A stretch of 64,000 bases of DNA from Escherichia phage vB_EcoM-Ro111lw. How positions within the stretch are numbered: the stretch's first letter is position 1; the number at the start of each line of letters is the position of its first letter. Below the pieces are notes generated by a model. That model ran no database searches. It was not told the origin of the DNA and saw only the letters and a list, made by a program, of their open reading frames with translations. Both the position numbers and the translations under genes were made by a program. Of this stretch, positions 14,479 to 64,000 are shown piece by piece. The stretch lies in sequence record MH571750.1; one strand, written 5' to 3'.

Positions 14479-14488
14479 TTTCTTTACA

Positions 14489-24337: not shown

Positions 24338-24398
24338 AAGCCCTCCTATATAAGATATAGTATAAGGTACTCTTCCATGAGCACCTTGTCAATACTAA

Positions 24399-31993: not shown

Positions 31994-32022
31994 TTGACAA
32001 TAGAGTATCAACAAATTAGAAT
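31994..32022 (+). promoter_or_regulatory. Sigma70-like promoter TTGACA-N17-TAGAAT upstream of SSB-like gene
   Basis: Consensus -35, 17-bp spacer, 5/6 -10; 37 bp upstream of the 32059 start. Confidence 0.5.
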
Positions 32023-51113: not shown

Positions 51114-51127
51114 AGTGTTTGACAAGG

Positions 51128-51157
51128 GGCTTTGAAGCCCCTTAGAATAGCCTCACA
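51128..51157 (+). promoter_or_regulatory. Promoter-like TTGACA-N18-TAGAAT with GGGGCTTTGAAGCCCC hairpin in the spacer
   Basis: Consensus -35, hairpin inside spacer, 5/6 -10; upstream of 51193 gene. Confidence 0.4.
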
Positions 51158-56743: not shown

Positions 56744-56827
56744 GAAACTCTGTATAATATTCACAATATACTAAGCCTTTCTTATCTGGTAAATTTTTCA
56801 GGTAAGGAGGGCTTTTTTATTTCAGGA

Positions 56828-57010
56828 TTGTGCAGGTAGAGTTCTGGACAGAAATCTGTAGAGAAAATTTTGAACTCCAAAGAGAAAATTCATTTTCAAA
56901 CTGTGCAGGTAATCTCCAAAGAGCTTTTTCATTTTCAAAACGTGCAGACCCCGCTCAGGTCGGGCAAGAAAAATCATTTTAGAATTGTGCAGGTAGGTGG
57001 ATGCAGGTGG
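56828..57010 (+). repeat. Tandem degenerate repeats (about 40-45 bp unit) with core CATTTTCAAA-N-TGTGCAGGTA in a 520-bp non-coding gap
   Basis: TGTGCAGGTA-like cores at about 56830, 56902, 56941, 56987 and 57001; AAAGAG...TTCATTTTCAAA precedes three of them. Confidence 0.6.
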
Positions 57011-57171: not shown

Positions 57172-57263
57172 TTGACTCTTTGAGTATGGTTATCTAATAT
57201 TTGCATCAACGGGGAGGGAATGACCTTCCCCACTAAGTAAAGTCCTAAACTGGAGATTCTAAA
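57172..57263 (+). promoter_or_regulatory. Type-A cassette 1: TTGACT-N17-TAATAT promoter plus conserved hairpin leader and RBS
   Basis: Leader TCAACGGGGAGGGAATGACCTTCCCCACTAAGTAAAGTCCTAAACTGGAGATTCTAAA immediately before ATG 57264; GGGAA-tgacc-TTCCC hairpin. Confidence 0.6.
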
Positions 57264-57644
57264 ATGGCATACCGTGCACCTAAATTCATCAACAAAGACA
57301 ACTTCCGCAACGCACTGGAGAAGTCACTTGATGAAAAATTTAACGGCAAATTGATTGTTGTTCACGCATTCAATTTTAAGTATGATATTAACGGGAATAA
57401 AATCAACCATTACACGGCAACCATGTTAGATGGTACGCTATCAAGTGAAAAAGCCGTACTGAATGCACTTGCAGGACGTGGTAAAAACCTGATAAGCTGC
57501 AATAAGAGACGTTATCAAGGTGGCGCATATGGTTATGATGATGCTGTTTACCATCTTGAAAATATGGGCTATTCAGTGGAGAAAGCTGGAGCGTCTCAAA
57601 TAATTGGTAGTGATGGTTATGTGACAATCTTCAAAATTAAATAA
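57264..57644 (+). CDS. Hypothetical small protein (cassette-associated)
   Basis: 126 aa, ATG after conserved leader. Confidence 0.55.
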   Translation: MAYRAPKFINKDNFRNALEKSLDEKFNGKLIVVHAFNFKYDINGNKINHYTATMLDGTLSSEKAVLNALAGRGKNLISCNKRRYQGGAYGYDDAVYHLENMGYSVEKAGASQIIGSDGYVTIFKIK

Positions 57645-57650
57645 AAGTAC

Positions 57651-57730
57651 TTTACAAGGGGCTTATAGTTCGATAAAGTAAGCCCCAGATAAAGAGCTTT
57701 ATCACTCAATCCTAAATTGGAGATTCAAAA
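57651..57730 (+). promoter_or_regulatory. Type-B cassette 1: TTTACA + GGGGCTTA...TAAGCCCC hairpin (with embedded -10-like TAAAGT) + conserved leader
   Basis: 8-bp GC-rich stem; followed by AGATAAAGAGCTTTATCACTCAATCCTAAATTGGAGATTCAAAA then ATG 57731. Confidence 0.55.
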
Positions 57731-57988
57731 ATGGCTATTATCAAAAACGTTGTAGTTCCTGCAAAAACTCGTGATGACGCTCGCATCATGGCGAAAAAGT
57801 TAGGCGGGAAAGTGGTTGACAACGGAAAACAATCTGCTGTAAGATGGAGCGTGAAGGCTGATAAGCAACTAACCTTAAAACGCAGTTCAAACAATCTTTT
57901 TAAAGGTGTAAAATCACTCGGTAAAGTGAACGTGTTTACCAAAAAAGGCTATAAAATGCACTTATCATTAACTGGCAATTTAATCTGA
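57731..57988 (+). CDS. Hypothetical small basic protein (cassette-associated)
   Basis: 85 aa. Confidence 0.5.
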   Translation: MAIIKNVVVPAKTRDDARIMAKKLGGKVVDNGKQSAVRWSVKADKQLTLKRSSNNLFKGVKSLGKVNVFTKKGYKMHLSLTGNLI

Positions 57989-57996
57989 TAAAGTAC

Positions 57997-58078
57997 TTTA
58001 CAGGGGGCTTAAAAGCTGATATCTTAAGCCCCAGATAAAGAGCTTTACCACTCAATCCTTAAACTAGGAGATTCAAAA
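57997..58078 (+). promoter_or_regulatory. Type-B cassette 2 (TTTACA + GGGGCTTAA...TTAAGCCCC hairpin + leader)
   Basis: 9-bp stem, -10-like TATCTT in 3' arm, conserved leader to ATG 58079. Confidence 0.55.
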
Positions 58079-58591
58079 ATGAAAACTGTAGAAGCTACCT
58101 TTGAAGTTGTAAAAGAAAAATTTTCCATCATTTACGAAGCTGTTAATTGCTTTGAAGCAAGCCATAACCTTGATAATTGGGAGTTTACAGATGACCATCA
58201 AGGCGGCGTGACTATTAAAAACCCCAACTGTCAGCGTAATGATTTTAAATATGCAATCCCTTTACATTACAGCCTTAAACAGCTTTCAAGTGACTATGCA
58301 AAACAAGGCCGGGAAAATCCATCAAAAGAGGCTTACATAAGCTTACAGAAAGAACTAGAAAGAGATTTAGAGGCTTCAGAATACAACCTTGCCGCGAAAG
58401 TTGTCGATGCAAATGGTCAAACAATTTTAGATAGTTTTTATATTGGTTACGCTTTCGATTGGTGCTATAGTGACGGCGATGATTTAGAGGATAGACTAAA
58501 AGAAGAGGTGAGCAATTCAGACGCAGAATCTGAAGTATTAGAACGCTTGGAAGCATTAAAAGATTCAGTGATGAATATCTTTAAGAACTAA
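58079..58591 (+). CDS. Hypothetical protein (cassette-associated)
   Basis: 170 aa. Confidence 0.55.
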   Translation: MKTVEATFEVVKEKFSIIYEAVNCFEASHNLDNWEFTDDHQGGVTIKNPNCQRNDFKYAIPLHYSLKQLSSDYAKQGRENPSKEAYISLQKELERDLEASEYNLAAKVVDANGQTILDSFYIGYAFDWCYSDGDDLEDRLKEEVSNSDAESEVLERLEALKDSVMNIFKN

Positions 58592-58600
58592 ATAGATTTC

Positions 58601-58678
58601 TTTACACGGGGCTATCAAGCTGATAAGATAGCCCCAGATAAAGAGATTTATCAACTATCCTAAACTGGAGATTCAAAA
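58601..58678 (+). promoter_or_regulatory. Type-B cassette 3 (TTTACA + GGGGCTATC...GATAGCCCC hairpin + leader)
   Basis: Different stem sequence from cassettes 1 and 2 but base pairing kept (compensatory changes). Confidence 0.55.
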
Positions 58679-58975
58679 ATGAAATTATCAAATAAAGTCC
58701 GTGAAAATCTAAGCAAGTTACTCAACAAAATTGATTTTATCGAGACATCAAGGAATAGTCATGATGTTATGGAATGGTTACACGGAAAAATCAAAGGCCG
58801 TCGTGTAGTGATTTGCTTATGGAATAGTTGCAGGGAATATAAAAAACCTGTATTACAAGTCAATATCTATGATGATACTTTTAAAAGCCCTGTAAAGTCT
58901 AAAAGTGATTTATTAGAATCCTATGAGATAACTGTAAATGGCAAAGTATCAAGTAAAGAGGAAACACCATGTTAA
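58679..58975 (+). CDS. Hypothetical small protein (cassette-associated)
   Basis: 98 aa. Confidence 0.5.
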   Translation: MKLSNKVRENLSKLLNKIDFIETSRNSHDVMEWLHGKIKGRRVVICLWNSCREYKKPVLQVNIYDDTFKSPVKSKSDLLESYEITVNGKVSSKEETPC

Positions 58976-59301
58976 TGACTGGTATCACTGCAATCATTGC
59001 CATTTTCGCGCTATATAAGGCATATAAAGCCTATAATCTAGCAAATAAGGCAATCACACAGCAGGTTAGCAATAGCCTTGTAGAAAGCTTTCTAGGGCGT
59101 CTCAGTGATGAGCAAATAAAGCGGTTAGAAATGAGCTTCAGATTCAAAGCGAAAACCTATCAGATAAGTGACATCTTCAAGGATGATTTCCAGTTAGTCG
59201 ATGATTATAATTCTCTGATAAATGCTTTAAATATCAGTGACTTAAAAGACTACTACGCTGTAATTGTTCAAGAGTTGAGCAAACGAAAACAAAACTGTTG
59301 A
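58969..59301 (+). CDS. Hypothetical membrane-anchored protein
   Basis: N-terminal hydrophobic helix (MLMTGITAIIAIFALY); RBS AAGAGGAAA. Confidence 0.5.
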   Translation: MLMTGITAIIAIFALYKAYKAYNLANKAITQQVSNSLVESFLGRLSDEQIKRLEMSFRFKAKTYQISDIFKDDFQLVDDYNSLINALNISDLKDYYAVIVQELSKRKQNC

Positions 59302-59390
59302 CACTGATTTTTAGATAGATTAAATTACACATCAACGGGGAGGGAACAACCTTCCCACTAAATAAAGTCCTTAAACTAGGAGATTCTAAA
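59298..59390 (+). promoter_or_regulatory. Type-A cassette 2: TTGACA-N17-TAAATT promoter plus conserved hairpin leader
   Basis: Consensus -35; leader ACACATCAACGGGGAGGGAACAACCTTCCCACTAAATAAAGTCCTTAAACTAGGAGATTCTAAA before ATG 59391. Confidence 0.65.
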
Positions 59391-59663
59391 ATGTATACTA
59401 CTAACAATGGCCTCACTTTGAACGTCACACTACGTCACTATGTAGATGGTGTCATGCACTTTGAAGATTTACAAGCTGAACAACATATCTTAGATTGGCA
59501 AGTCGCAGGACTCCAAAAAACTGCTACGGGATACGGTAAAAAGATTCCAACTAGTTGGAAAGTTCACTATGAAGGACGTTTGCGCAGAATTTATCAAGAT
59601 GTGCAAAGCAATAGCGCATCGAGTTACATTATAGTAAAAGGTGAAAAACTGCATTTAGTATAA
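59391..59663 (+). CDS. Hypothetical small protein (cassette-associated)
   Basis: 90 aa. Confidence 0.5.
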   Translation: MYTTNNGLTLNVTLRHYVDGVMHFEDLQAEQHILDWQVAGLQKTATGYGKKIPTSWKVHYEGRLRRIYQDVQSNSASSYIIVKGEKLHLV

Positions 59664-59668
59664 AGTAC

Positions 59669-59748
59669 TTTACATGGGGTTTAAAAGTTGGTATCTTAAG
59701 CCCCAGATAAAGAGCTTTACCCCTAAATCCTAAATTGGAGATTCAAAA
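59669..59748 (+). promoter_or_regulatory. Type-B cassette 4 (TTTACA + GGGGTTTAA...TTAAGCCCC hairpin + leader)
   Basis: Stem retains pairing through a G-U wobble; conserved leader to ATG 59749. Confidence 0.55.
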
Positions 59749-60153
59749 ATGGCTATTAATAATCGTGAGTTATCAATCTTAAAAGCACGTTTAACCGTTA
59801 ATCGAATCAATGTTATCACGTCATCAGCACCAGACGAGACATTACACAACATTATCGGGAAGATTCAAGGTGTTATCTTAGACGTTGAGAATGTAAAAAA
59901 CTCATTAGCAGACGTTGCAGCAGGTGTTACACTAGACGGCGCACAATATGAAATGATTGACATGTTAGGCAAATCAAAGGTTATGAATAAAGAGTTAGAC
60001 TTAAAAATGTTTCGATTTGCCGTGAAAGTATGGCTATCTGTCGAGTATGATGCTAATTTTGCAATTGCTGATTTCTTTGCCACTTGGTTGCAACGTAACT
60101 TAACAAATCATGATTTTCGTGATATCTGTGATGCAATTTACGCAGAACTTTAA
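59749..60153 (+). CDS. Hypothetical protein (cassette-associated)
   Basis: 134 aa. Confidence 0.55.
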   Translation: MAINNRELSILKARLTVNRINVITSSAPDETLHNIIGKIQGVILDVENVKNSLADVAAGVTLDGAQYEMIDMLGKSKVMNKELDLKMFRFAVKVWLSVEYDANFAIADFFATWLQRNLTNHDFRDICDAIYAEL

Positions 60154-60161
60154 AAATTTTA

Positions 60162-60253
60162 TTGACACTGATTTTTAGATAGACTAAATTACACATCAAC
60201 GGGGAGGGAACAACCTTCCCACTAAATAAAGTCCTTAAACTAGGAGATTCAAA
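60162..60253 (+). promoter_or_regulatory. Type-A cassette 3: TTGACA-N17-TAAATT promoter plus conserved leader
   Basis: Almost identical over about 90 bp to cassette at 59298. Confidence 0.65.
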
Positions 60254-60796
60254 ATGAAATGCTTTCACGGTACTACTCAAGAAAACTTTATCAACCTGAT
60301 TAATAACGGTGATAAACCATCAGGTGTATGGAATTGTTCGGATATGGACGGCAATTTTTACGTGTACCCAGAAAATAAACTCTATGGTGATGATGAGGAA
60401 GAGATAGCATCGGAAGGTATCCAGCAAGCTCTAGGAAATGCCACTATCACGGCAGCTTTTCAGATGAAAACTCAAAATATTGTTATCTTAGAACTTGACA
60501 TTCCAGAGGATGAGCTAAATGATGATTATTCTTGTGATAACATGTCAAATATAGCAAGCTTTACAGAGTACTTTGATGTAAATTGGATTAAAAAGGTCTA
60601 TACAACAGAGTTCAACGCTATGTATTCACCTTTTTGTCTCCCTTCACTGGATAACCCAAATTTGAATTATCTTGATGAAACATTGGAGCTACTTGCTAAA
60701 AGTATCCAACAATCCGACAGTATTCAGGTTTTTTGTGACATCATGGATACACTGACAGAAAACATTGTAGAGAGTGATTTAAAGGTCTTTTTCTAA
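60254..60796 (+). CDS. Hypothetical acidic protein (cassette-associated)
   Basis: 180 aa. Confidence 0.55.
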   Translation: MKCFHGTTQENFINLINNGDKPSGVWNCSDMDGNFYVYPENKLYGDDEEEIASEGIQQALGNATITAAFQMKTQNIVILELDIPEDELNDDYSCDNMSNIASFTEYFDVNWIKKVYTTEFNAMYSPFCLPSLDNPNLNYLDETLELLAKSIQQSDSIQVFCDIMDTLTENIVESDLKVFF

Positions 60797-60862: not shown

Positions 60863-61096
60863 ATGCTTACAACCATTTATCTCATCCTTTCTATCTGTAA
60901 CGGTCATTCATGTGACTTTAAAGGGCTTGAAGAGTTTACAGGAAGTAAAGAAAATGCTATTCAGGTTTGCCAGATAGCAAGACAAGACTATCCCGCCAGT
61001 GACGACATTCAATGCTACTTTAAGACAGAAGATGAAGACGGCATCTATTTTGACAGCGTTGACGGTCAATATGAAATTATCATTGAAAAAGACTAG
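60863..61096 (+). CDS. Hypothetical small protein
   Basis: 77 aa; RBS AGAGGG; preceded by CCCCT-tac-AGGGG hairpin. Confidence 0.45.
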   Translation: MLTTIYLILSICNGHSCDFKGLEEFTGSKENAIQVCQIARQDYPASDDIQCYFKTEDEDGIYFDSVDGQYEIIIEKD

Positions 61097-61187
61097 ACAA
61101 GCCTGATAAAAGTCTGTAAATTACACATCAACGGGGAGGGAATGACCTTCCCCACTAAATAAAGTCCTTAAACTAGGAGATTCAAAA
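61094..61187 (+). promoter_or_regulatory. Type-A cassette 4: TAGACA-N17-TAAATT promoter plus conserved leader
   Basis: Leader identical to cassette 1 hairpin version (GGGAATGACCTTCCCC). Confidence 0.6.
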
Positions 61188-61529
61188 ATGGCTTATGTAA
61201 CCGTAATTACCGATAAAGCTGGCTCATCTTGGTCAACTCAGGTTAGTGATAAGATGTCGCCTATGCAGTGCCTAAAATACTTTGAGCAGTGGAACAAAGG
61301 CGAGGATGTAAGCCCCTTTCAAGTGATGCAAATCATCCATACAGATAACGAAGGGAATAAAACGACCTTGAACAGTGAATACTACGCAAGCCGTTTTGAA
61401 ACGAGAAGTAAAACAATGAAGCTTTTACGTGAATCCGGCTATTCTCATATTGCCGCGCTAATCTGGGATGACCTGCTAAAAAGCCAGCGTATCAGCTATG
61501 TAAAACCTGAAAAAATATTCATCAGTTAA
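61188..61529 (+). CDS. Hypothetical protein (cassette-associated)
   Basis: 113 aa. Confidence 0.55.
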   Translation: MAYVTVITDKAGSSWSTQVSDKMSPMQCLKYFEQWNKGEDVSPFQVMQIIHTDNEGNKTTLNSEYYASRFETRSKTMKLLRESGYSHIAALIWDDLLKSQRISYVKPEKIFIS

Positions 61530-61561: not shown

Positions 61562-61590
61562 TTGACAATACCCCTTGACATTGGTAACTT
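61562..61590 (+). promoter_or_regulatory. Possible additional promoter TTGACA-N17-TAACTT in a 220-bp non-coding spacer (tandem TTGACA hexamers)
   Basis: Two TTGACA hexamers 13 bp apart; no ORF directly downstream. Confidence 0.3.
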
Positions 61591-61658
61591 TGTTCGAGGG
61601 GGTTTATCTAAAAGGGATTCACTTAATAGATTCTTTATAGATAAACTTAAAAAATTGC

Positions 61659-61750
61659 TTGCAAAGGCAAATCAAAACAAGTAAATTACTAATCAACGGG
61701 AAGGGATTAACCTTCCCACTAAGTAAAGTCCTTAAACTAGGAGATTCAAA
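61659..61750 (+). promoter_or_regulatory. Type-A cassette 5: TTGCAA-N17-TAAATT promoter plus leader (hairpin variant GGGA-ttaacct-TCCC)
   Basis: Conserved TAAATTACTAATCAACGGG...ACTAAGTAAAGTCCTTAAACTAGGAGATTCAAA before ATG 61751. Confidence 0.6.
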
Positions 61751-62281
61751 ATGAACAAGTTTCAAGCTATCAACTATATTCGCTCATCCAACGTTATGAC
61801 TAAGCCCGTTAAAGATACCTTCGAATTTCGTTGCAACGGTGTACACTTTGCAACTATCACTAAATCAGAAAACGGGGCTTATTATATACATCGTCGTAAT
61901 GCCTCTACTGTTGTAGTCTCTCACTTTATGCAAGCTGTAGCAGAACTGTTACCGCTATTCTTAGGTATTTACTTAGATGAGTGCAAAAACGTTCGCAACC
62001 ACGTTAAAGACCTTTTAAATGGTTATAAAATGGCTTATGAACGTTCTATCAAGAATCTTAACAAGTTCTATAAAGCCCCTGAAAATACTGTTTCAATGGC
62101 TTACAGTGTAAGCGGTGAGTTGGTTAGCCTCTTTGAAGTGGAAGAAATCGCGTTGCATGACTTACGCCCTAGCGGTTACTCTAAGACACTAGAGGAAGGT
62201 TTAACGTTCAATATCAAGAACTTAGAAAAAACTTTAAAAGATATTGAAAAAGATATTGACGAGACAATCAAAAATCTGTAA
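61751..62281 (+). CDS. Hypothetical protein (cassette-associated)
   Basis: 176 aa. Confidence 0.55.
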   Translation: MNKFQAINYIRSSNVMTKPVKDTFEFRCNGVHFATITKSENGAYYIHRRNASTVVVSHFMQAVAELLPLFLGIYLDECKNVRNHVKDLLNGYKMAYERSIKNLNKFYKAPENTVSMAYSVSGELVSLFEVEEIALHDLRPSGYSKTLEEGLTFNIKNLEKTLKDIEKDIDETIKNL

Positions 62282-62343
62282 ATTGTCAATCAACGGGGGA
62301 TAACCTCCCCCACTAAACAAAATCCTAAACTGGAGTTATCAAG
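62256..62343 (+). promoter_or_regulatory. Type-A cassette 6: TTGACG-N17-TAAATT promoter (overlapping upstream stop) plus leader with compensated hairpin GGGGGA-taacc-TCCCCC
   Basis: Stem sequence differs from other copies but pairing is kept. Confidence 0.6.
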
Positions 62344-62607
62344 ATGGAAAACGTAGAATTAACCACACTTTTACAAATTGCAACCGACAAAGAAGATGTA
62401 GCATTATTCCACCGTATCGAAAGCGATTTGTTCAATGGTGAAATCATTAAAGAATCTTACGAAGTTGTCGGATTCAAAGATGGTAAAGCATTTGGCTTTT
62501 TTGACCTCGACAAAAGCAAAGCGGTTACAATGTACGATGTTCTATCTTGTGAAATTCTGACAAAATACAACGAAAAAAGGCTTGCAACCTACGCCAATAT
62601 GCAGTAA
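62344..62607 (+). CDS. Hypothetical small protein (cassette-associated)
   Basis: 87 aa. Confidence 0.5.
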   Translation: MENVELTTLLQIATDKEDVALFHRIESDLFNGEIIKESYEVVGFKDGKAFGFFDLDKSKAVTMYDVLSCEILTKYNEKRLATYANMQ

Positions 62608-62674
62608 ATTACTAATCAACGGGGAGGGAATGACCTTCCCACTAAACAAAGTCCTAAACTGGAGAATCTAAATT
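62582..62674 (+). promoter_or_regulatory. Type-A cassette 7: TTGCAA-N17-TAAATT promoter plus conserved leader
   Basis: -10 overlaps upstream stop codon; leader with GGGAATGACCTTCCC hairpin before ATG 62675. Confidence 0.6.
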
Positions 62675-62923
62675 ATGTCAACTATCCGCGTAACTGTTAA
62701 TGCTTATGGCTGCCACAAACTTGATGCAAAATTCGATATCGGTGGAACAGATAACACCTTTGACCTTATCAAAATGCTGATTCAGCAGGTGATACCAGAT
62801 TATAACCCTACTGATGACTTCTGGAAAGATGCCGTAAAAGAAGCCATAAACGAGGAATCTCACTACCATTATTGGGGTGACTTGATTGTCTCTCTATACT
62901 ACAGCAAACAAGGCTACAACTAA
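62675..62923 (+). CDS. Hypothetical small protein (last ORF before the repeat region)
   Basis: 82 aa. Confidence 0.5.
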   Translation: MSTIRVTVNAYGCHKLDAKFDIGGTDNTFDLIKMLIQQVIPDYNPTDDFWKDAVKEAINEESHYHYWGDLIVSLYYSKQGYN

Positions 62924-62933
62924 TCGACGCAAC

Positions 62934-62985
62934 GGGGCTAAATAGCCCCAGATACCTTTACAGCCCCTTAAATGGGGCTTTTTTA
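62934..62985 (+). terminator. Tandem hairpins ending in a rho-independent terminator
   Basis: GGGGCT-aaat-AGCCCC then AGCCCC-ttaaat-GGGGCT followed by TTTTTT. Confidence 0.6.
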
Positions 62986-63129: not shown

Positions 63130-63560
63130 CCCATTAAAACGCTCTATAAAGCTCTATAACAGCCTTATCAACCTAACTTAAGCAATCATATTAACCCACT
63201 CTAAAAAGCCCTTTATAGAGCTTCCCAGAGCCTTAAAAGAATCTTATAAGGGTGAAAGCTTATAGGCTGGCTAGTATCTTGTGAATAACTAAACAATCCC
63301 CTTGATAGTCACTAAAAAGCATGTTATAGGGGCTATAAAGTTACTTCAAAGTAACGTAAAAAAGGCTATAAAGTTACGTAAATGCTAGCCCCCTTAACAT
63401 TTTCTTAACAATTTCTTAACAAACCCTACATAGTTATGCTTTTAAGGCACTTGTTAGAGACTTGTTAGCCCCTTGTTAAATCTCTGTTAAGACCACGTAA
63501 AAGCCTTGTAAGAGTCTTTGGCATAGCCTTTAAAGCTCCTATAAAGCCCTATAAAGAGGT
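63130..63560. repeat. (G)CTATAAAG repeat family and palindromes in ORF-free region
   Basis: GCTCTATAAAGCTCTATAAC, inverted CTTTATAGAGC, GGCTATAAAGTTAC twice, CCTATAAAG twice; palindrome GTTACTTCAAAGTAAC and TTACGTAA. Confidence 0.6.
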
Positions 63561-64000
63561 GTCTGTATAGTTGGGGTGTAGATACTAGGAAGAGGTTTAA
63601 AAGAGCTTACAAGGAGCTATAGAGAGCTTTTAAGAGGTATGTTTAAGAGTTCACTAAGAAAGGAAAGGGAACGATAAGGAAGAGATAGTGACCATGTTAA
63701 TAGCTTGTTAAAAAGATTAAACACTTGTTAGAAACTTGTTAATTATCTAATTGGTATTGTTACCAATCCCTAACAAAATAACTCTTTAAAATTAACTTGT
63801 TAGCTCTTGTTAGTCATCTGTTAAGCCTCTGTAAAGACTATTCAGCACTTGTTAGAAAACTGTTAAGCCCTTGTTAGTTCTGTTAAGAAACTGTTAAGAC
63901 CTTTGAAGAGTTGTTAAGAAGATGTGAGAACTGTTAAGAGATTGTTAAGGATATTTTAAAATTTTGCAAAGTACTTGTAAGGGAGCTGTTAAGGGCTACC
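63404..64000. repeat. Array of about 20-25 CTTGTTAG / CTGTTAAG octamer repeats, many phased at 10-12 bp; continues to window end
   Basis: Direct copies at about 63450, 63461, 63472, 63484, 63705, 63724, 63735, 63796, 63806, 63818, 63848, 63860, 63870, 63880, 63891, 63910, 63931, 63942, 63986, plus inverted TTAACAA copies at 63404-63423; no ORF of 60 aa or more on either strand. Confidence 0.7.

What the first reader, a model, noticed from the sequence alone, without database searches (positions are those of the whole stretch)
57651..59748. Four type-B cassettes: TTTACA plus GC-rich hairpin with an embedded -10-like hexamer and a conserved leader
ORFs starting at 57731, 58079, 58679 and 59749 are preceded by AAAGTACTTTACA, then a GGGGCT...AGCCCC hairpin of 8-9 bp (three different stem sequences, all paired, one via a G-U wobble), then AGATAAAGAGCTTTA(T/C)C...CCTAAA(T/C)TGGAGATTCAAAAATG. 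The hairpin is not followed by a U-tract, so it is not a canonical intrinsic terminator. TTTACA lies 17 bp upstream of a TA-rich hexamer (TAAAGT / TATCTT / TAAGAT) that sits in the 3' stem arm, so the unit could be a promoter whose spacer folds in upstream read-through RNA, for example as an RNase III or RNase E processing site. The same TTTACA-GGGGCT hairpin, with a T-tract, ends the fiber gene (14483) and the cassette region (62957).
Basis: partly seen in the sequence, partly recalled or inferred. Interest (0 to 1): 0.6.

Follow-up and report, generated by a model that had tools for sequence, protein, structure and literature searches.

The report
Promoter-in-hairpin gene cassettes, Felix O1-like phage
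Four small early genes of a Felix O1-like phage are each preceded by the same about 90-base cassette, in which a host-type promoter sits inside a conserved 57-base RNA hairpin; this closely resembles the promoter/stem-loop cassettes (PeSLs) that shuffle genes in T4-like phages, so it is an interesting but not unprecedented feature.

Summary
The window is a Felixounavirus. Four type-B cassettes lie at 57642-57733, 57986-58081, 58589-58681 and 59661-59751.

An AU-rich lower stem pairs the region just upstream of TTTACA, including the upstream stop codon, with AGATAAAGAGCTTTA. The result is a 57-nt, three-helix hairpin, which is exactly the uninterpreted 57-bp "direct repeat" of the 2010 Felix O1 genome paper.

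I compared 84 distinct copies from three Ounavirinae genera:
- The fold is kept: 89% of cells pair, several pairs show compensatory changes, and there are 146 G.U cells against about 6 A.C cells. This points to an RNA on the + strand.
- CTTTACA, a 17-bp spacer and TAnnnT are invariant or nearly so, although the T and A of the second hexamer lie in the apical loop.

Orthologous genes carry type-B cassettes in some genomes and canonical-promoter type-A cassettes in others. Of 90 synteny breakpoints, 79 fall inside cassettes. All the flanked ORFs are of unknown function.

Best reading: a PeSL-like composite element, with a sigma-70 early promoter nested in a stem-loop that forms only in read-through RNA. 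It also serves as a recombination module. There is no U-tract, so it is not an intrinsic terminator. RNase III processing fits the geometry but is untested, and G-C pairs next to the internal loop argue against it. I class it as a new member of a known kind, of moderate interest.

The parts
57642..57733 (+). Type-B cassette 1, from the stop codon TAA of ORF 57264-57644 to the ATG of ORF 57731-57988. Extended RNA hairpin 57644-57700; -35 TTTACA 57651-57656; -10 TAAAGT 57674-57679; predicted +1 about 57687 (the A of AGATAAAG); SD GGAG 57719-57722.
   Evidence: dG -20.7 kcal/mol, z -4.7
57986..58081 (+). Type-B cassette 2, from the stop codon TGA (followed by TAA) of ORF 57731-57988 to the ATG at 58079. 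Extended hairpin 57989-58047; -35 57997-58002; TGn plus -10 TATCTT 58020-58025; predicted +1 about 58033.
   Evidence: dG -22.9, z -3.5
58589..58681 (+). Type-B cassette 3 (variant c), from the stop codon TAA of ORF 58079-58591 to the ATG at 58679. Extended hairpin 58592-58651 with an unbroken 13-bp lower stem; -35 58601-58606; TGn plus -10 TAAGAT 58624-58629; predicted +1 about 58636. This variant is 1 nt shorter, and the missing base lies after the -10, so the 17-bp spacer is kept.
   Evidence: dG -27.6, z -6.8
59661..59751 (+). Type-B cassette 4, from the stop codon TAA of ORF 59391-59663 to the ATG at 59749. Extended hairpin 59661-59719 with a U.G wobble in the upper stem (GGGGTTTAA/TTAAGCCCC); -35 59669-59674; TGn plus -10 TATCTT 59692-59697; predicted +1 about 59705.
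   Evidence: dG -22.5, z -3.1
57731..60153 (+). The ORFs served by the four cassettes: 57731-57988 (85 aa), 58079-58591 (170 aa), 58679-58975 (98 aa) with the overlapping 58969-59301 (110 aa), and 59749-60153 (134 aa). The span also holds ORF 59391-59663 (90 aa), which lies behind the type-A cassette at 59298-59393. None has a Pfam match, and all fall in PHROG families of unknown function.
57172..57266 (+). Type-A cassette, the first of seven. The others are at 59298-59393, 60162-60256, 61094-61190, 61659-61753, 62256-62346 and 62582-62677. Layout: a -35-like hexamer (TTGACA, TTGACT, TAGACA, TTGCAA or TTGACG), 17 bp, then TAAATT (TAATAT in this first copy), then ATCAAC, then a GGGGAGGG..CCTTCCCC hairpin in the 5' UTR, then a leader related to the type-B leader. 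Type A and type B are interchangeable before orthologous genes.
56773..56823 (+). Canonical U-tract terminator that bounds the cassette region on the left. Its right-hand counterpart lies at 62962-62985. The scan found no other + strand canonical terminator between them.
51119..51148 (+). rIIA/rIIB intergenic site TTGACA-18-TAGAAT, with the hairpin GGGGCTTTGAAGCCCC filling the spacer. It has the same promoter-plus-hairpin design with a different sequence. Similar sites lie at 24392 (-) and 31994 (+).

Best explanation
Each type-B unit is a portable regulatory cassette of the PeSL kind. It combines two signals in the same 57 nt.

(1) A promoter for the host sigma-70 RNA polymerase. It has an A/T-rich upstream stretch, a -35 CTTTACA, a 17-bp spacer that often ends in TGn, and a -10 TAnnnT. 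The start is predicted at the A of AGATAAAG. The promoter drives early, largely monocistronic expression of the small gene downstream through a conserved leader and Shine-Dalgarno sequence.

(2) An imperfect hairpin of about 19-22 bp that can form only in + strand RNA read through from the upstream gene. Its lower stem pairs the upstream stop-codon/-35 region with the first 15 nt of the leader. Its upper GC stem lies in the spacer and discriminator. The -10 sits in the apical loop and the predicted +1 sits in the internal loop.

The hairpin most likely marks and protects the 3' end of the upstream message, or attenuates or processes read-through. This would insulate neighbouring cassettes from one another.

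Because the cassettes are repeated in direct orientation between ORFans, they are also the places where genes are gained, lost and swapped by recombination.

Shown here: the sequence conservation, the fold and its covariation, the strand asymmetry, the interchange with type-A cassettes, and the breakpoint clustering. Inferred: promoter activity, the start site, and what the RNA hairpin does.
For: Identity: the window is a Felixounavirus. The cassette occurs about 5 times per genome in 287 Ounavirinae records.

Promoter:
- In 84 distinct copies from Felixounavirus, Mooglevirus and Kolesnikvirus, C-T-T-T-A-C-A is invariant and the next base is free.
- G at -14 is present in 76 of 84. T1 and A2 of the second hexamer are invariant although they lie in the apical loop. 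Positions 3-5 are free. T6 is present in 83 of 84.
- Among the 40 distinct cores of the first collection, the spacer is 17 bp in 38 and 18 bp in 2. The 1-nt length difference of variant c falls after the -10.
- Erwinia phage cassettes that lack the lower-stem partner still keep TTTACA or TTGCAA, then 17 bp, then TGnGAnTAT. Another class there places TAAAAT in the loop of an unrelated GAGGGG/CCCCTC hairpin, 18 bp after TTGACA.
- Orthologous genes (MAYVT, MAIIN, MAYRA, MKCFH) carry type B in some genomes and type A in others. At least some type-A copies have a canonical TTGACA-17-TAAATT promoter.
- T4/PST PeSL promoters have the consensus TTTACW-N17-TAYWAT (PMC4122927).
- Felix O1 ORFs 16 and 20 lie directly downstream of the 57-bp repeat. 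They are maximally expressed 5 min after infection (PMC3185647).

RNA hairpin:
- MFE folds are -20.7 to -27.6 kcal/mol, with z from -3.1 to -6.8.
- 89.3% of cells pair, against 33-52% in the slid controls. The covariation score is 0.104 against 0.057 in shuffles, reached by 0 of 500 shuffles.
- Compensatory pairs: 13-64 GC/UA, 26-51 GC/UA and 9-68 UA/AU.
- There are 146 G.U cells against about 6 genuine A.C cells.
- The fold is kept in all three genera.

Module role:
- 79 of 90 internal synteny breakpoints lie in cassettes and intergenic regions, which with the 10-bp margin used make up 25% of the region.
- Specific ORFs are absent in relatives, with the two flanking cassettes merged into one.
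- Mosaic cassettes pass a four-gamete test.
- Tandem and empty cassettes exist.
- All flanked ORFs are of unknown function.
Against: - No transcript-end data exist for any Felix O1-like phage in the library searched.
- The promoter match is only 9/12. Matches of that quality are common in this AT-rich genome: 47 were found against 26 expected.
- Four bases of TTTACA and the T6 of the -10 are also base-paired in the RNA fold. Part of their conservation could therefore come from the RNA alone.
- The inner lower stem never varies, so it says nothing either way. Part of the collection was also anchored on CCCCAGATAAAGAG.
- Copies within and between genomes are related and probably homogenised by gene conversion. 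The number of independent compensatory events is therefore small, perhaps 5-8.
- The function of the hairpin is not established. There is no U-tract for termination. GGGG/CCCC next to the internal loop places G-C pairs where E. coli RNase III disfavours them.
Confidence: 0.65

Rival explanations
1. The unit is a purely RNA-level element with no promoter. The 57-nt hairpin would be a processing or stability signal in a long polycistronic early transcript, for example an RNase III-type site as in the T7 early region, or a barrier to 3' exonucleases. On this view the invariant CA, the UA in the loop and AGA are contacts for a nuclease or an RNA-binding protein.
For: - The fold covers the whole conserved block and covaries.
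- G.U cells far outnumber A.C cells.
- The quasi-continuous helix is about two turns long, with an internal loop about 9 bp below the apical loop. This fits the general RNase III substrate description in PMC1540722.
- The cassette region has canonical terminators only at its two ends, so read-through RNA should exist.
Against: - It needs a separate, unknown reader for each invariant unpaired base. One known mechanism, sigma-70 recognition, explains CA, G-14, TA, T6 and the fixed 17-bp spacing together.
- The TA lies in a loop in Felixounavirus copies but inside the stem in Erwinia phage copies. It is therefore conserved as sequence, not as structure.
- Erwinia copies without a lower stem keep a -35/-10 pair.
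- Type B is exchanged with promoter-bearing type A before the same genes.
- G-C pairs fill the positions next to the internal loop, where they inhibit RNase III binding or catalysis.
Confidence: 0.15
2. The hairpin is a transcription terminator or attenuator for the upstream gene, and TTTACA..TAnnnT is incidental. This is the PeSL authors' own reading of their stem-loops.
For: - The GGGG..CCCC stem resembles PeSL stem-loops, one of which reduced reporter expression about as much as rrnB T1 (PMC2839356).
- The TTTACA-plus-GGGGCT hairpin motif does act as the stem of a canonical terminator at 14483.
Against: - AGAUAAAG follows the stem, with 1 U in 8 nt, and the terminator scan does not pick up any of the four.
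- The apical loop is 10-13 nt, which is large for an intrinsic terminator.
- The phage uses ordinary U-tract terminators where the region begins and ends.
- The lower stem and the conserved leader are not explained.
Confidence: 0.08
3. The unit is a DNA-level element. The two 12-bp palindromes TAAAGnnCTTTA, one over the -35 and one at +4 to +15, would be operators for a dimeric phage or host repressor. Alternatively the inverted repeat would act as a cruciform or recombination site with no RNA role.
For: - TAAAGTACTTTA is a perfect palindrome. TAAAGAGCTTTA has the same half-sites and the same spacing.
- The two sites bracket the core promoter.
- The cassettes are clearly recombination boundaries.
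Against: - Variant c breaks both palindromes (TAGATTTCTTTA and TAAAGAGATTTA). It nevertheless keeps the cross-pairing between the two sites through a G-C to U-A double change: GC 67, UA 8 at pair 13-64.
- The strong G.U over A.C asymmetry is not expected for duplex DNA recognition, nor for a cruciform, where the other strand would carry A.C mismatches.
- The centre-to-centre distance of 46-47 bp is out of helical phase.
Confidence: 0.07

Closest known systems
PeSLs (promoter-early stem-loops) of T4-like phages: Arbiol et al. 2010 (PMC2839356) and Comeau et al. 2014 (PMC4122927)
   Same: - Repeated intergenic cassettes of about 50-100 bp, beginning at the upstream stop codon in an A/T-rich stretch.
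- A sigma-70-type early promoter. The T4/PST consensus TTTACW-N17-TAYWAT is very close.
- A Gn-loop-Cn stem-loop placed between -35 and -10, or over the -10.
- The cassette ends in a Shine-Dalgarno sequence and the ATG.
- They are concentrated in a hyperplastic region of ORFans.
- Indel and replacement junctions between related genomes lie in them.
- Degraded, tandem and chimeric copies occur.
   Different: - The host lineage is Ounavirinae (Felix O1-like), not T4-like, and there is no sequence homology to the published PeSLs.
- The stem-loop here is a 57-nt three-helix hairpin that encloses the whole core promoter from about -43 to about +15. The -10 is in the apical loop and +1 in an internal loop. 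This layout is not among the five PeSL subclasses described.
- The -10 is weaker (TAnnnT).
- No experimental promoter, terminator or mini-circle data exist here.
RNase III processing signals of the T7 early and middle regions (R0.3 to R1.3; R3.8, R4.7, R6.5 and R13 next to phage promoters). The T7 map is from my own knowledge; the substrate rules are from PMC1540722.
   Same: - Intercistronic imperfect hairpins of about two helical turns, with an internal loop.
- In T7, single cleavage in the internal loop leaves a protective 3' hairpin on the upstream mRNA.
- In T7 several such sites lie next to promoters, so processed and initiated mRNAs are alike.
   Different: - Cleavage is untested here.
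- G-C pairs occupy the positions next to the internal loop, where they act as antideterminants.
- The promoter is inside the hairpin rather than beside it.
- The promoter is a host sigma-70 promoter, not a phage RNA polymerase promoter.
The 57-bp and 39-bp 'direct repeats' listed in the Felix O1 genome paper (PMC3185647)
   Same: The 57-bp repeat CTTTACATGGGGCTTAAAAGTCTGTAAAGTAAGCCCCAGATAAAGAGCTTTACCACT is a type-B core. The 39-bp repeat TTGACACTGG...ACATCAAC is the type-A promoter.
   Different: That paper lists them only as repeats. It states that how transcription gets past terminators, and how it is timed, is unknown. It proposes no promoter, fold or module role.
Canonical intrinsic (Rho-independent) terminators
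   Same: A GC-rich stem directly after a gene.
   Different: No U-tract, a 10-13 nt loop and an additional AU-rich lower stem. The true terminators of this region (56773-56823 and 62962-62985) look different.

Membership tests
PeSL (promoter-early stem-loop cassette) | Repeated intergenic motif concentrated in a variable (hyperplastic) region and associated with ORFans | tested here: met
   There are four type-B and seven type-A copies in 57.2-62.7 kb. The flanked ORFs have no Pfam match and fall in PHROG families of unknown function. Gene content varies between relatives.
PeSL (promoter-early stem-loop cassette) | Sigma-70-like -35 and -10 boxes at about 17 bp, preceded by an A/T-rich stretch that holds the upstream stop codon | tested here: met
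   TTTACA-17-TAnnnT scores 9/12. These positions are invariant in 84 copies. The stop codons lie in AAATAAAGTAC. The match is weaker than the near-consensus RB49 PeSLs, but it equals the T4/PST form TTTACW-N17-TAYWAT.
PeSL (promoter-early stem-loop cassette) | Stable stem-loop (G-tract, loop, C-tract) within or overlapping the promoter | tested here: met
   A GGGGYT..AGCCCC stem lies between -35 and +1 and overlaps the -10. It covaries.
PeSL (promoter-early stem-loop cassette) | Shine-Dalgarno sequence and start codon at the 3' end of the motif | tested here: met
   GGAGATTCAAAAATG is present in all four.
PeSL (promoter-early stem-loop cassette) | Insertions, deletions and replacements between close relatives have their junctions in the motifs | tested here: met
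   79 of 90 breakpoints lie in cassettes. There are single-ORF deletions with merged cassettes and mosaic cassettes.
PeSL (promoter-early stem-loop cassette) | Measured promoter activity, terminator/attenuator activity and excised mini-circles | not testable with these tools
   This needs reporter fusions and inverse PCR. No such data were found for Felix O1-like phages.
PeSL (promoter-early stem-loop cassette) | Occurs in T4-like myoviruses (the group in which the family was defined) | tested here: not met
   The window and all its relatives are Ounavirinae. The family is defined by architecture rather than by homology, so this limits only a narrow reading of membership.
Sigma-70 (housekeeping) promoter | -35 hexamer, 16-18 bp spacer, -10 hexamer with A2 and T6, and an optional TGn | tested here: met
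   Activity itself is not testable here.
Intrinsic terminator | GC-rich stem with a 3-8 nt loop, followed directly by a U-rich tract | tested here: not met
   The loop is 10-13 nt. AGAUAAAG follows the stem. The terminator scan finds none of the four.
E. coli RNase III processing site (T7 R1.1 type) | About two helical turns of quasi-continuous duplex, with an internal loop that restricts cleavage to one strand | tested here: met
   The structure has 9 bp, then a 3x3 internal loop, then 5 bp, then a mismatch, then 5-6 bp. The rule is from PMC1540722.
E. coli RNase III processing site (T7 R1.1 type) | No inhibitory G-C/C-G pairs in the proximal box next to the scissile bond | tested here: inconclusive
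   If cleavage were in the internal loop and read from the upper stem, the proximal box would be GGGG/CCCC, which is inhibitory. Read from the AU-rich lower stem it would be permissive. The real cleavage site, if any, is unknown.
N4-type hairpin promoter (virion RNA polymerase) | 5-7 bp stem with a 3-nt loop, read by a giant virion-packaged RNA polymerase | tested here: not met
   The loop is 10-13 nt. The Felix O1 paper reports no phage RNA polymerase (PMC3185647). The rule itself is from my own knowledge.

The most novel reading that the evidence does not exclude
The 57 nt are dual-coded. As DNA they are a sigma-70 promoter. As read-through RNA they are a processing and insulation hairpin whose internal loop coincides with the promoter's own start site. 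Endonucleolytic cleavage there, by RNase III or another host or phage nuclease, would give read-through transcripts the same 5' end as promoter-initiated ones. It would also leave every upstream mRNA with a protective 3' hairpin. That would make each ORFan a self-contained, context-independent expression unit that can be moved between genomes by recombination in the cassette.
Probability: 0.3. Interest if true: 0.65.

Novelty: new member of a known kind. Interest (0 to 1): 0.45.

Why it matters
Felix O1-like phages are widely used for Salmonella and E. coli typing, biocontrol and therapy. Their transcription programme is nevertheless essentially uncharted: the 2010 genome paper states that promoters past the terminators, and the basis of temporal control, are unknown.

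If the cassettes are what they appear to be, four things follow.
1. They supply the missing early promoters for the variable host-takeover genes.
2. PeSL-type promoter/stem-loop modules would not be a peculiarity of T4-like phages. They would be a recurrent solution for plugging ORFans into a phage genome.
3. They explain where gene gain and loss happens in this genus, which is useful when engineering or comparing therapeutic phages.
4. They offer a compact natural example of one sequence carrying both a DNA signal and an RNA structure. The compensatory variants already found in nature point to clear mutational tests.

Tried and rejected
1. Upstream hexamer as the real -10. TAAAGT lies 2 nt before TTTACA and is homologous to the -10 of type-A cassettes in Mordin. 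I rejected it as the promoter. Its T1 is lost in 12 copies and its T6 is lost in Erwinia phages (TAAAGA). No conserved -35 lies upstream. Its conservation is explained by the outer lower stem.

2. Two palindromic operators (TAAAGnnCTTTA). Rejected, because variant c breaks both palindromes but keeps the cross-pairing between them.

3. A genome-wide phage-specific ATAAAG(T) promoter motif. The motif is not confined to gene starts, so I did not pursue it.

4. Rfam. No family matched. Only chance-level hits appeared, for example mir-22 at E = 0.2 on the long hairpin.

5. Literature. No paper in the library interprets the repeat or maps transcript ends in Felix O1-like phages. GenBank records seen under the match annotate only 'hypothetical protein', apart from an unexplained 14-bp repeat_region in Citrobacter phage Mordin.

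6. Transcript-derived contigs whose ends might mark start sites. The protein look-up returned only genome and metagenome assemblies.

7. Type-A cassettes do not form an extended hairpin. They have only a 7-8 bp stem in the 5' UTR. The lower stem is therefore specific to type B.

8. N4-type hairpin promoter. Rejected on loop size and the absence of a phage RNA polymerase.


Full report
**What the window is.** A 5-kb stretch around the finding matches 256 phage records at 80-95% identity, almost all of them Felix O1-like myoviruses (Felixounavirus). The best-annotated relative, vB_EcoM_AYO145A, has only hypothetical proteins here. It annotates promoters only at what I call type-A units and nothing at the type-B units.

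**Checking the observation.**
- TTTACA followed by a GGGGYT stem occurs at 57651, 57997, 58601 and 59669.
- AGATAAAGAG occurs at these four places and nowhere else in 64 kb. GGAGATTCAAAAATG ends all four.
- The pattern TTTACANGGGGYT has 4 exact matches, and 8 with up to 1 mismatch, against 0.52 expected.
- The second hexamers TAAAGT, TATCTT, TAAGAT and TATCTT lie 17 bp after TTTACA. Three of them are preceded by TGn.
- No U-tract follows the stem, and the terminator scan does not report these sites.

Small corrections apply. AAAGTAC precedes TTTACA in three of the four units. The hexamer straddles the loop and the 3' arm. The hairpin at 62957 is GCCCC..GGGGC followed by TTTTTT, a normal terminator rather than the same stem. 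The one at 14483 is indeed CTTTACA, then GGGGCT..AGCCCC, then TTTT, after a tail-fibre gene.

**The hairpin is larger than described.** Folding 75 nt around each unit gives one dominant structure:
- an outer lower stem, UAAAG pairing with CUUUA;
- a U.G pair plus an A.A mismatch;
- an inner lower stem, CUUUA pairing with UAAAG;
- a 3x3 internal loop, CAN opposite AGA;
- the 8-9 bp GC-rich upper stem;
- a 10-13 nt apical loop.

Energies are -20.7 to -27.6 kcal/mol, with z-scores from -3.1 to -6.8 against shuffles. In unit 3 the lower stem is an unbroken 13 bp. The structured block is 57 nt. It coincides with the 57-bp 'direct repeat' that the Felix O1 genome paper listed between genes 15/16 and 19/20 without interpreting it (PMC3185647).

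In this fold, four bases of TTTACA are in the inner lower stem and its last two are in the internal loop. The TA of the second hexamer is in the apical loop. The predicted start, the A of AGAUAAAG, is on the 3' side of the internal loop.

**Comparative set.** I collected copies in four steps.
- A scan of IMG/VR for CCCCAGATAAAGAG brought in about 25 loci from Felix-like contigs. These held 90 instances and 40 distinct cores.
- A BLAST of one cassette against GenBank phages found 1,522 places in 287 records. All were Ounavirinae in practice, including Mooglevirus and the Erwinia/Salmonella genus Kolesnikvirus.
- I fetched Mordin, Fifi318 and SE5.
- I searched everything held with an nhmmer profile, so that copies with a changed leader were not missed.

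This gave 84 distinct sequences (alignment A1).

**Is the fold selected?** On A1, 89.3% of cells form standard pairs, against 33-52% when the 3' partners are slid by 1-3 columns. The covariation score is 0.104 against 0.057 in shuffles, reached by 0 of 500.

Pairs with changes on both sides include:
- 13-64 (GC 67, UA 8);
- 26-51 (GC 79, UA 5; the Erwinia GGTG..CACC stem);
- 9-68 (UA 69, AU 2);
- the top of the upper stem.

Variant c also swaps two further pairs, CTTA/TAAG against CTAT/ATAG.

Non-Watson-Crick cells are overwhelmingly G.U: 146, against 20 A.C. Fourteen of those 20 are an alignment-register artefact of variant c. G.U on the + strand would be A.C on the other strand. The structure is therefore selected in + strand RNA, that is, in sense transcripts that read through from the upstream gene. 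The same three-helix fold is predicted for the Mooglevirus and Kolesnikvirus copies.

Three caveats apply. The inner lower stem never varies, so it is uninformative. Part of the set was anchored on a 14-mer. The copies are related, so independent events are few.

**Is there a promoter?** Column statistics on A1:
- C16 to A22 (CTTTACA) are invariant, and the next base is free (0.12 bit).
- G at -14 is present in 76 of 84.
- T and A of the second hexamer are invariant.
- Hexamer positions 3-5 are free (0.13-0.37 bit).
- T6 is present in 83 of 84.

The loop bases around the TA vary freely, so the fold does not explain the TA. Among the 40 distinct cores of the first collection, the spacer is 17 bp in 38 and 18 bp in two. 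Variant c is one base shorter, but the missing base lies after the hexamer, so the 17 bp are kept.

The Erwinia phage is the most informative.
- Two of its cassettes have a different leader and no lower-stem partner. They still keep TTTACA or TTGCAA, then 17 bp, then TGnGA(C/T)TAT.
- Another class has TTGACA-18-TAAAAT with the -10 in the loop of an unrelated GAGGGG/CCCCTC hairpin.
- In its type-B copies the TA is inside an extended stem rather than in a loop. It is therefore conserved as sequence.

Within the window the same design recurs with other sequences at 51119 (rIIA/rIIB, TTGACA-18-TAGAAT with a hairpin in the spacer), at 24392 (-) and at 31994 (+).

Orthologous genes are preceded by type B in some genomes and by type A in others. 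At least some type-A copies have a clear TTGACA-17-TAAATT promoter followed by a 5'-UTR hairpin. The two cassette types must therefore supply the same function.

Two external facts fit. T4/PST PeSL promoters have the consensus TTTACW-N17-TAYWAT (PMC4122927). In Felix O1 itself, ORFs 16 and 20, the genes directly after the 57-bp repeat, peak at 5 min after infection (PMC3185647).

Against this, a 9/12 match is unremarkable in this genome: 47 sites were found against 26 expected. No transcript-end mapping exists.

**Module behaviour.** Alignments of 56.9-63.0 kb with 30 related loci give 90 internal breakpoints. Of these, 79 fall in cassettes or intergenic regions, which with the 10-bp margin used occupy 25% of the sequence. 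This comparison is not phylogenetically independent.

Examples:
- ORF 57731-57988 is absent from L109 and L014.
- ORF 58079-58591 is absent from L064.
- Most of ORF 58679-58975 (window 58593-58948) is missing from L014. The downstream junction at 58948 lies inside the ORF, not in a cassette.
- Larger blocks bounded by type-A units are absent from L024.

In the first two cases a single merged cassette remains.

Hairpin classes a, b and c each occur with both forms of the SD leader. Chimeric B/A leaders exist. There is a tandem pair of half-cassettes joined at CTTTAC. One cassette has its ATG fused directly to the next cassette. All the flanked ORFs are of unknown function. Canonical terminators bracket the cassette region (56773-56823 and 62962-62985), and the scan found no other + strand canonical terminator between them.

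**What it most likely is.** The closest known system is the PeSL, the promoter-early stem-loop of T4-like phages (PMC2839356; PMC4122927). A PeSL has:
- a stop codon in an A/T-rich stretch;
- a sigma-70-like promoter;
- a Gn-loop-Cn stem-loop, most often between -35 and -10 or over the -10;
- an SD and an ATG.

PeSLs are clustered among ORFans in hyperplastic regions and sit at indel junctions. Every architectural feature I could test is met here. The differences are the phage lineage (Ounavirinae), the absence of sequence homology, and the much larger hairpin that wraps the whole core promoter.

I therefore read the type-B unit as a PeSL-like cassette with a host-polymerase early promoter nested in a stem-loop that exists only in read-through RNA. 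It also doubles as a recombination module.

**What the hairpin does.** This is the weakest step.
- Intrinsic termination is unlikely, because there is no U-tract and the loop is large.
- RNase III processing fits the size and the internal loop: substrates typically have two helical turns, and internal loops restrict cleavage and leave a protective 3' hairpin (PMC1540722). However, GGGG/CCCC sits where G-C pairs inhibit binding or catalysis.
- A general role as a 3'-end barrier or insulator for the upstream message is the safest inference.

**Rivals.**
- An RNA-only element would need separate explanations for each invariant unpaired base and for the fixed spacing.
- A pair of DNA operators (TAAAGnnCTTTA twice) is contradicted by variant c. 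That variant breaks both palindromes but keeps the cross-pairing between them.
- The upstream TAAAGT is not a conserved -10.

**Novelty and interest.** The repeat itself was published as a bare sequence in 2010. Its fold, promoter geometry, interchange with type-A units and module role do not appear in the literature I could search. GenBank records leave it unannotated, apart from an unexplained 14-bp repeat_region in Mordin.

It is a new member of a known kind (PeSL-type cassettes) in a second, unrelated group of virulent myoviruses, with an unusual nested geometry. I rate the interest as moderate at 0.45. It would be higher if the internal loop proves to be a processing site that coincides with the transcription start.

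Noticed in passing
window 63451-63986: There are 19 + strand copies of YTGTTAR (CTTGTTAG, CTGTTAAG and similar), often spaced 10-11 bp apart. They lie in a non-coding stretch of about 1 kb after the terminator at 62962-62985. Only 31 + strand copies occur in the other 63 kb. The pattern looks like a helically phased protein-binding array, possibly at a genome end, a packaging site or an origin.
   Followed up: partly
window 56829-57010: TGTGCAGGTA occurs three times (56829, 56902, 56986), with two degenerate copies. The copies are separated by CATTTTCAAA-type spacers. They lie in the 350-bp non-coding gap between the terminator at 56773-56823 and the first cassette promoter (TTGACT at 57172). 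The array is conserved in related contigs L024 and L094. It could be iterons or a regulator-binding array.
   Followed up: partly
window 57172-57266, 59298-59393, 60162-60256, 61094-61190, 61659-61753, 62256-62346, 62582-62677: Seven type-A cassettes. Layout: a -35-like hexamer, 17 bp, then TAAATT, which in three copies contains the upstream stop codon TAA (TAATAT in the first copy). ATCAAC follows, then a GGGGAGGG..CCTTCCCC hairpin with a G.U wobble near the predicted 5' end of the transcript, then a leader related to the type-B leader.
   Followed up: partly
window 51119-51148; also 24392 (-) and 31994 (+): Other sigma-70-like sites with a hairpin in the spacer or over the -10. One lies between rIIA and rIIB: TTGACA-18-TAGAAT around GGGGCTTTGAAGCCCC. 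This suggests the design is general in this phage.
   Followed up: partly
window 57711-57722, 58057-58070 and the equivalent leaders: The leader before the SD exists in two alternative forms, CCTAAAYTGGAG and CCTTAAACTAGGAG, in both cassette types. The forms differ by a paired T...A insertion that lengthens a small SD-sequestering stem from UCC/GGA to UCCU/AGGA.
   Followed up: no
L122 (Citrobacter phage Mordin) 4417-4562, and an IMG/VR Mooglevirus-like locus: Two type-B half-cassettes lie in tandem, joined at CTTTAC, which is shared by the -35 and the leader. Separately, there is an 'empty' cassette whose ATG is fused directly to the next CTTTACA, which is a precise ORF deletion.
   Followed up: partly
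window 62934-62985: A remnant cassette, CAACGGGGCTAAATAGCCCCAGATA, has a type-A 5' end and a type-B 3' end. TTTACA and a canonical terminator follow directly. The arrangement is conserved in Mordin.
   Followed up: no
window 61562-61610: Two TTGACA hexamers lie 13 bp apart, inside and next to a CCCCTTGACA...CGAGGGGG hairpin. They sit in the long intergenic region upstream of the type-A cassette at 61659.
   Followed up: no
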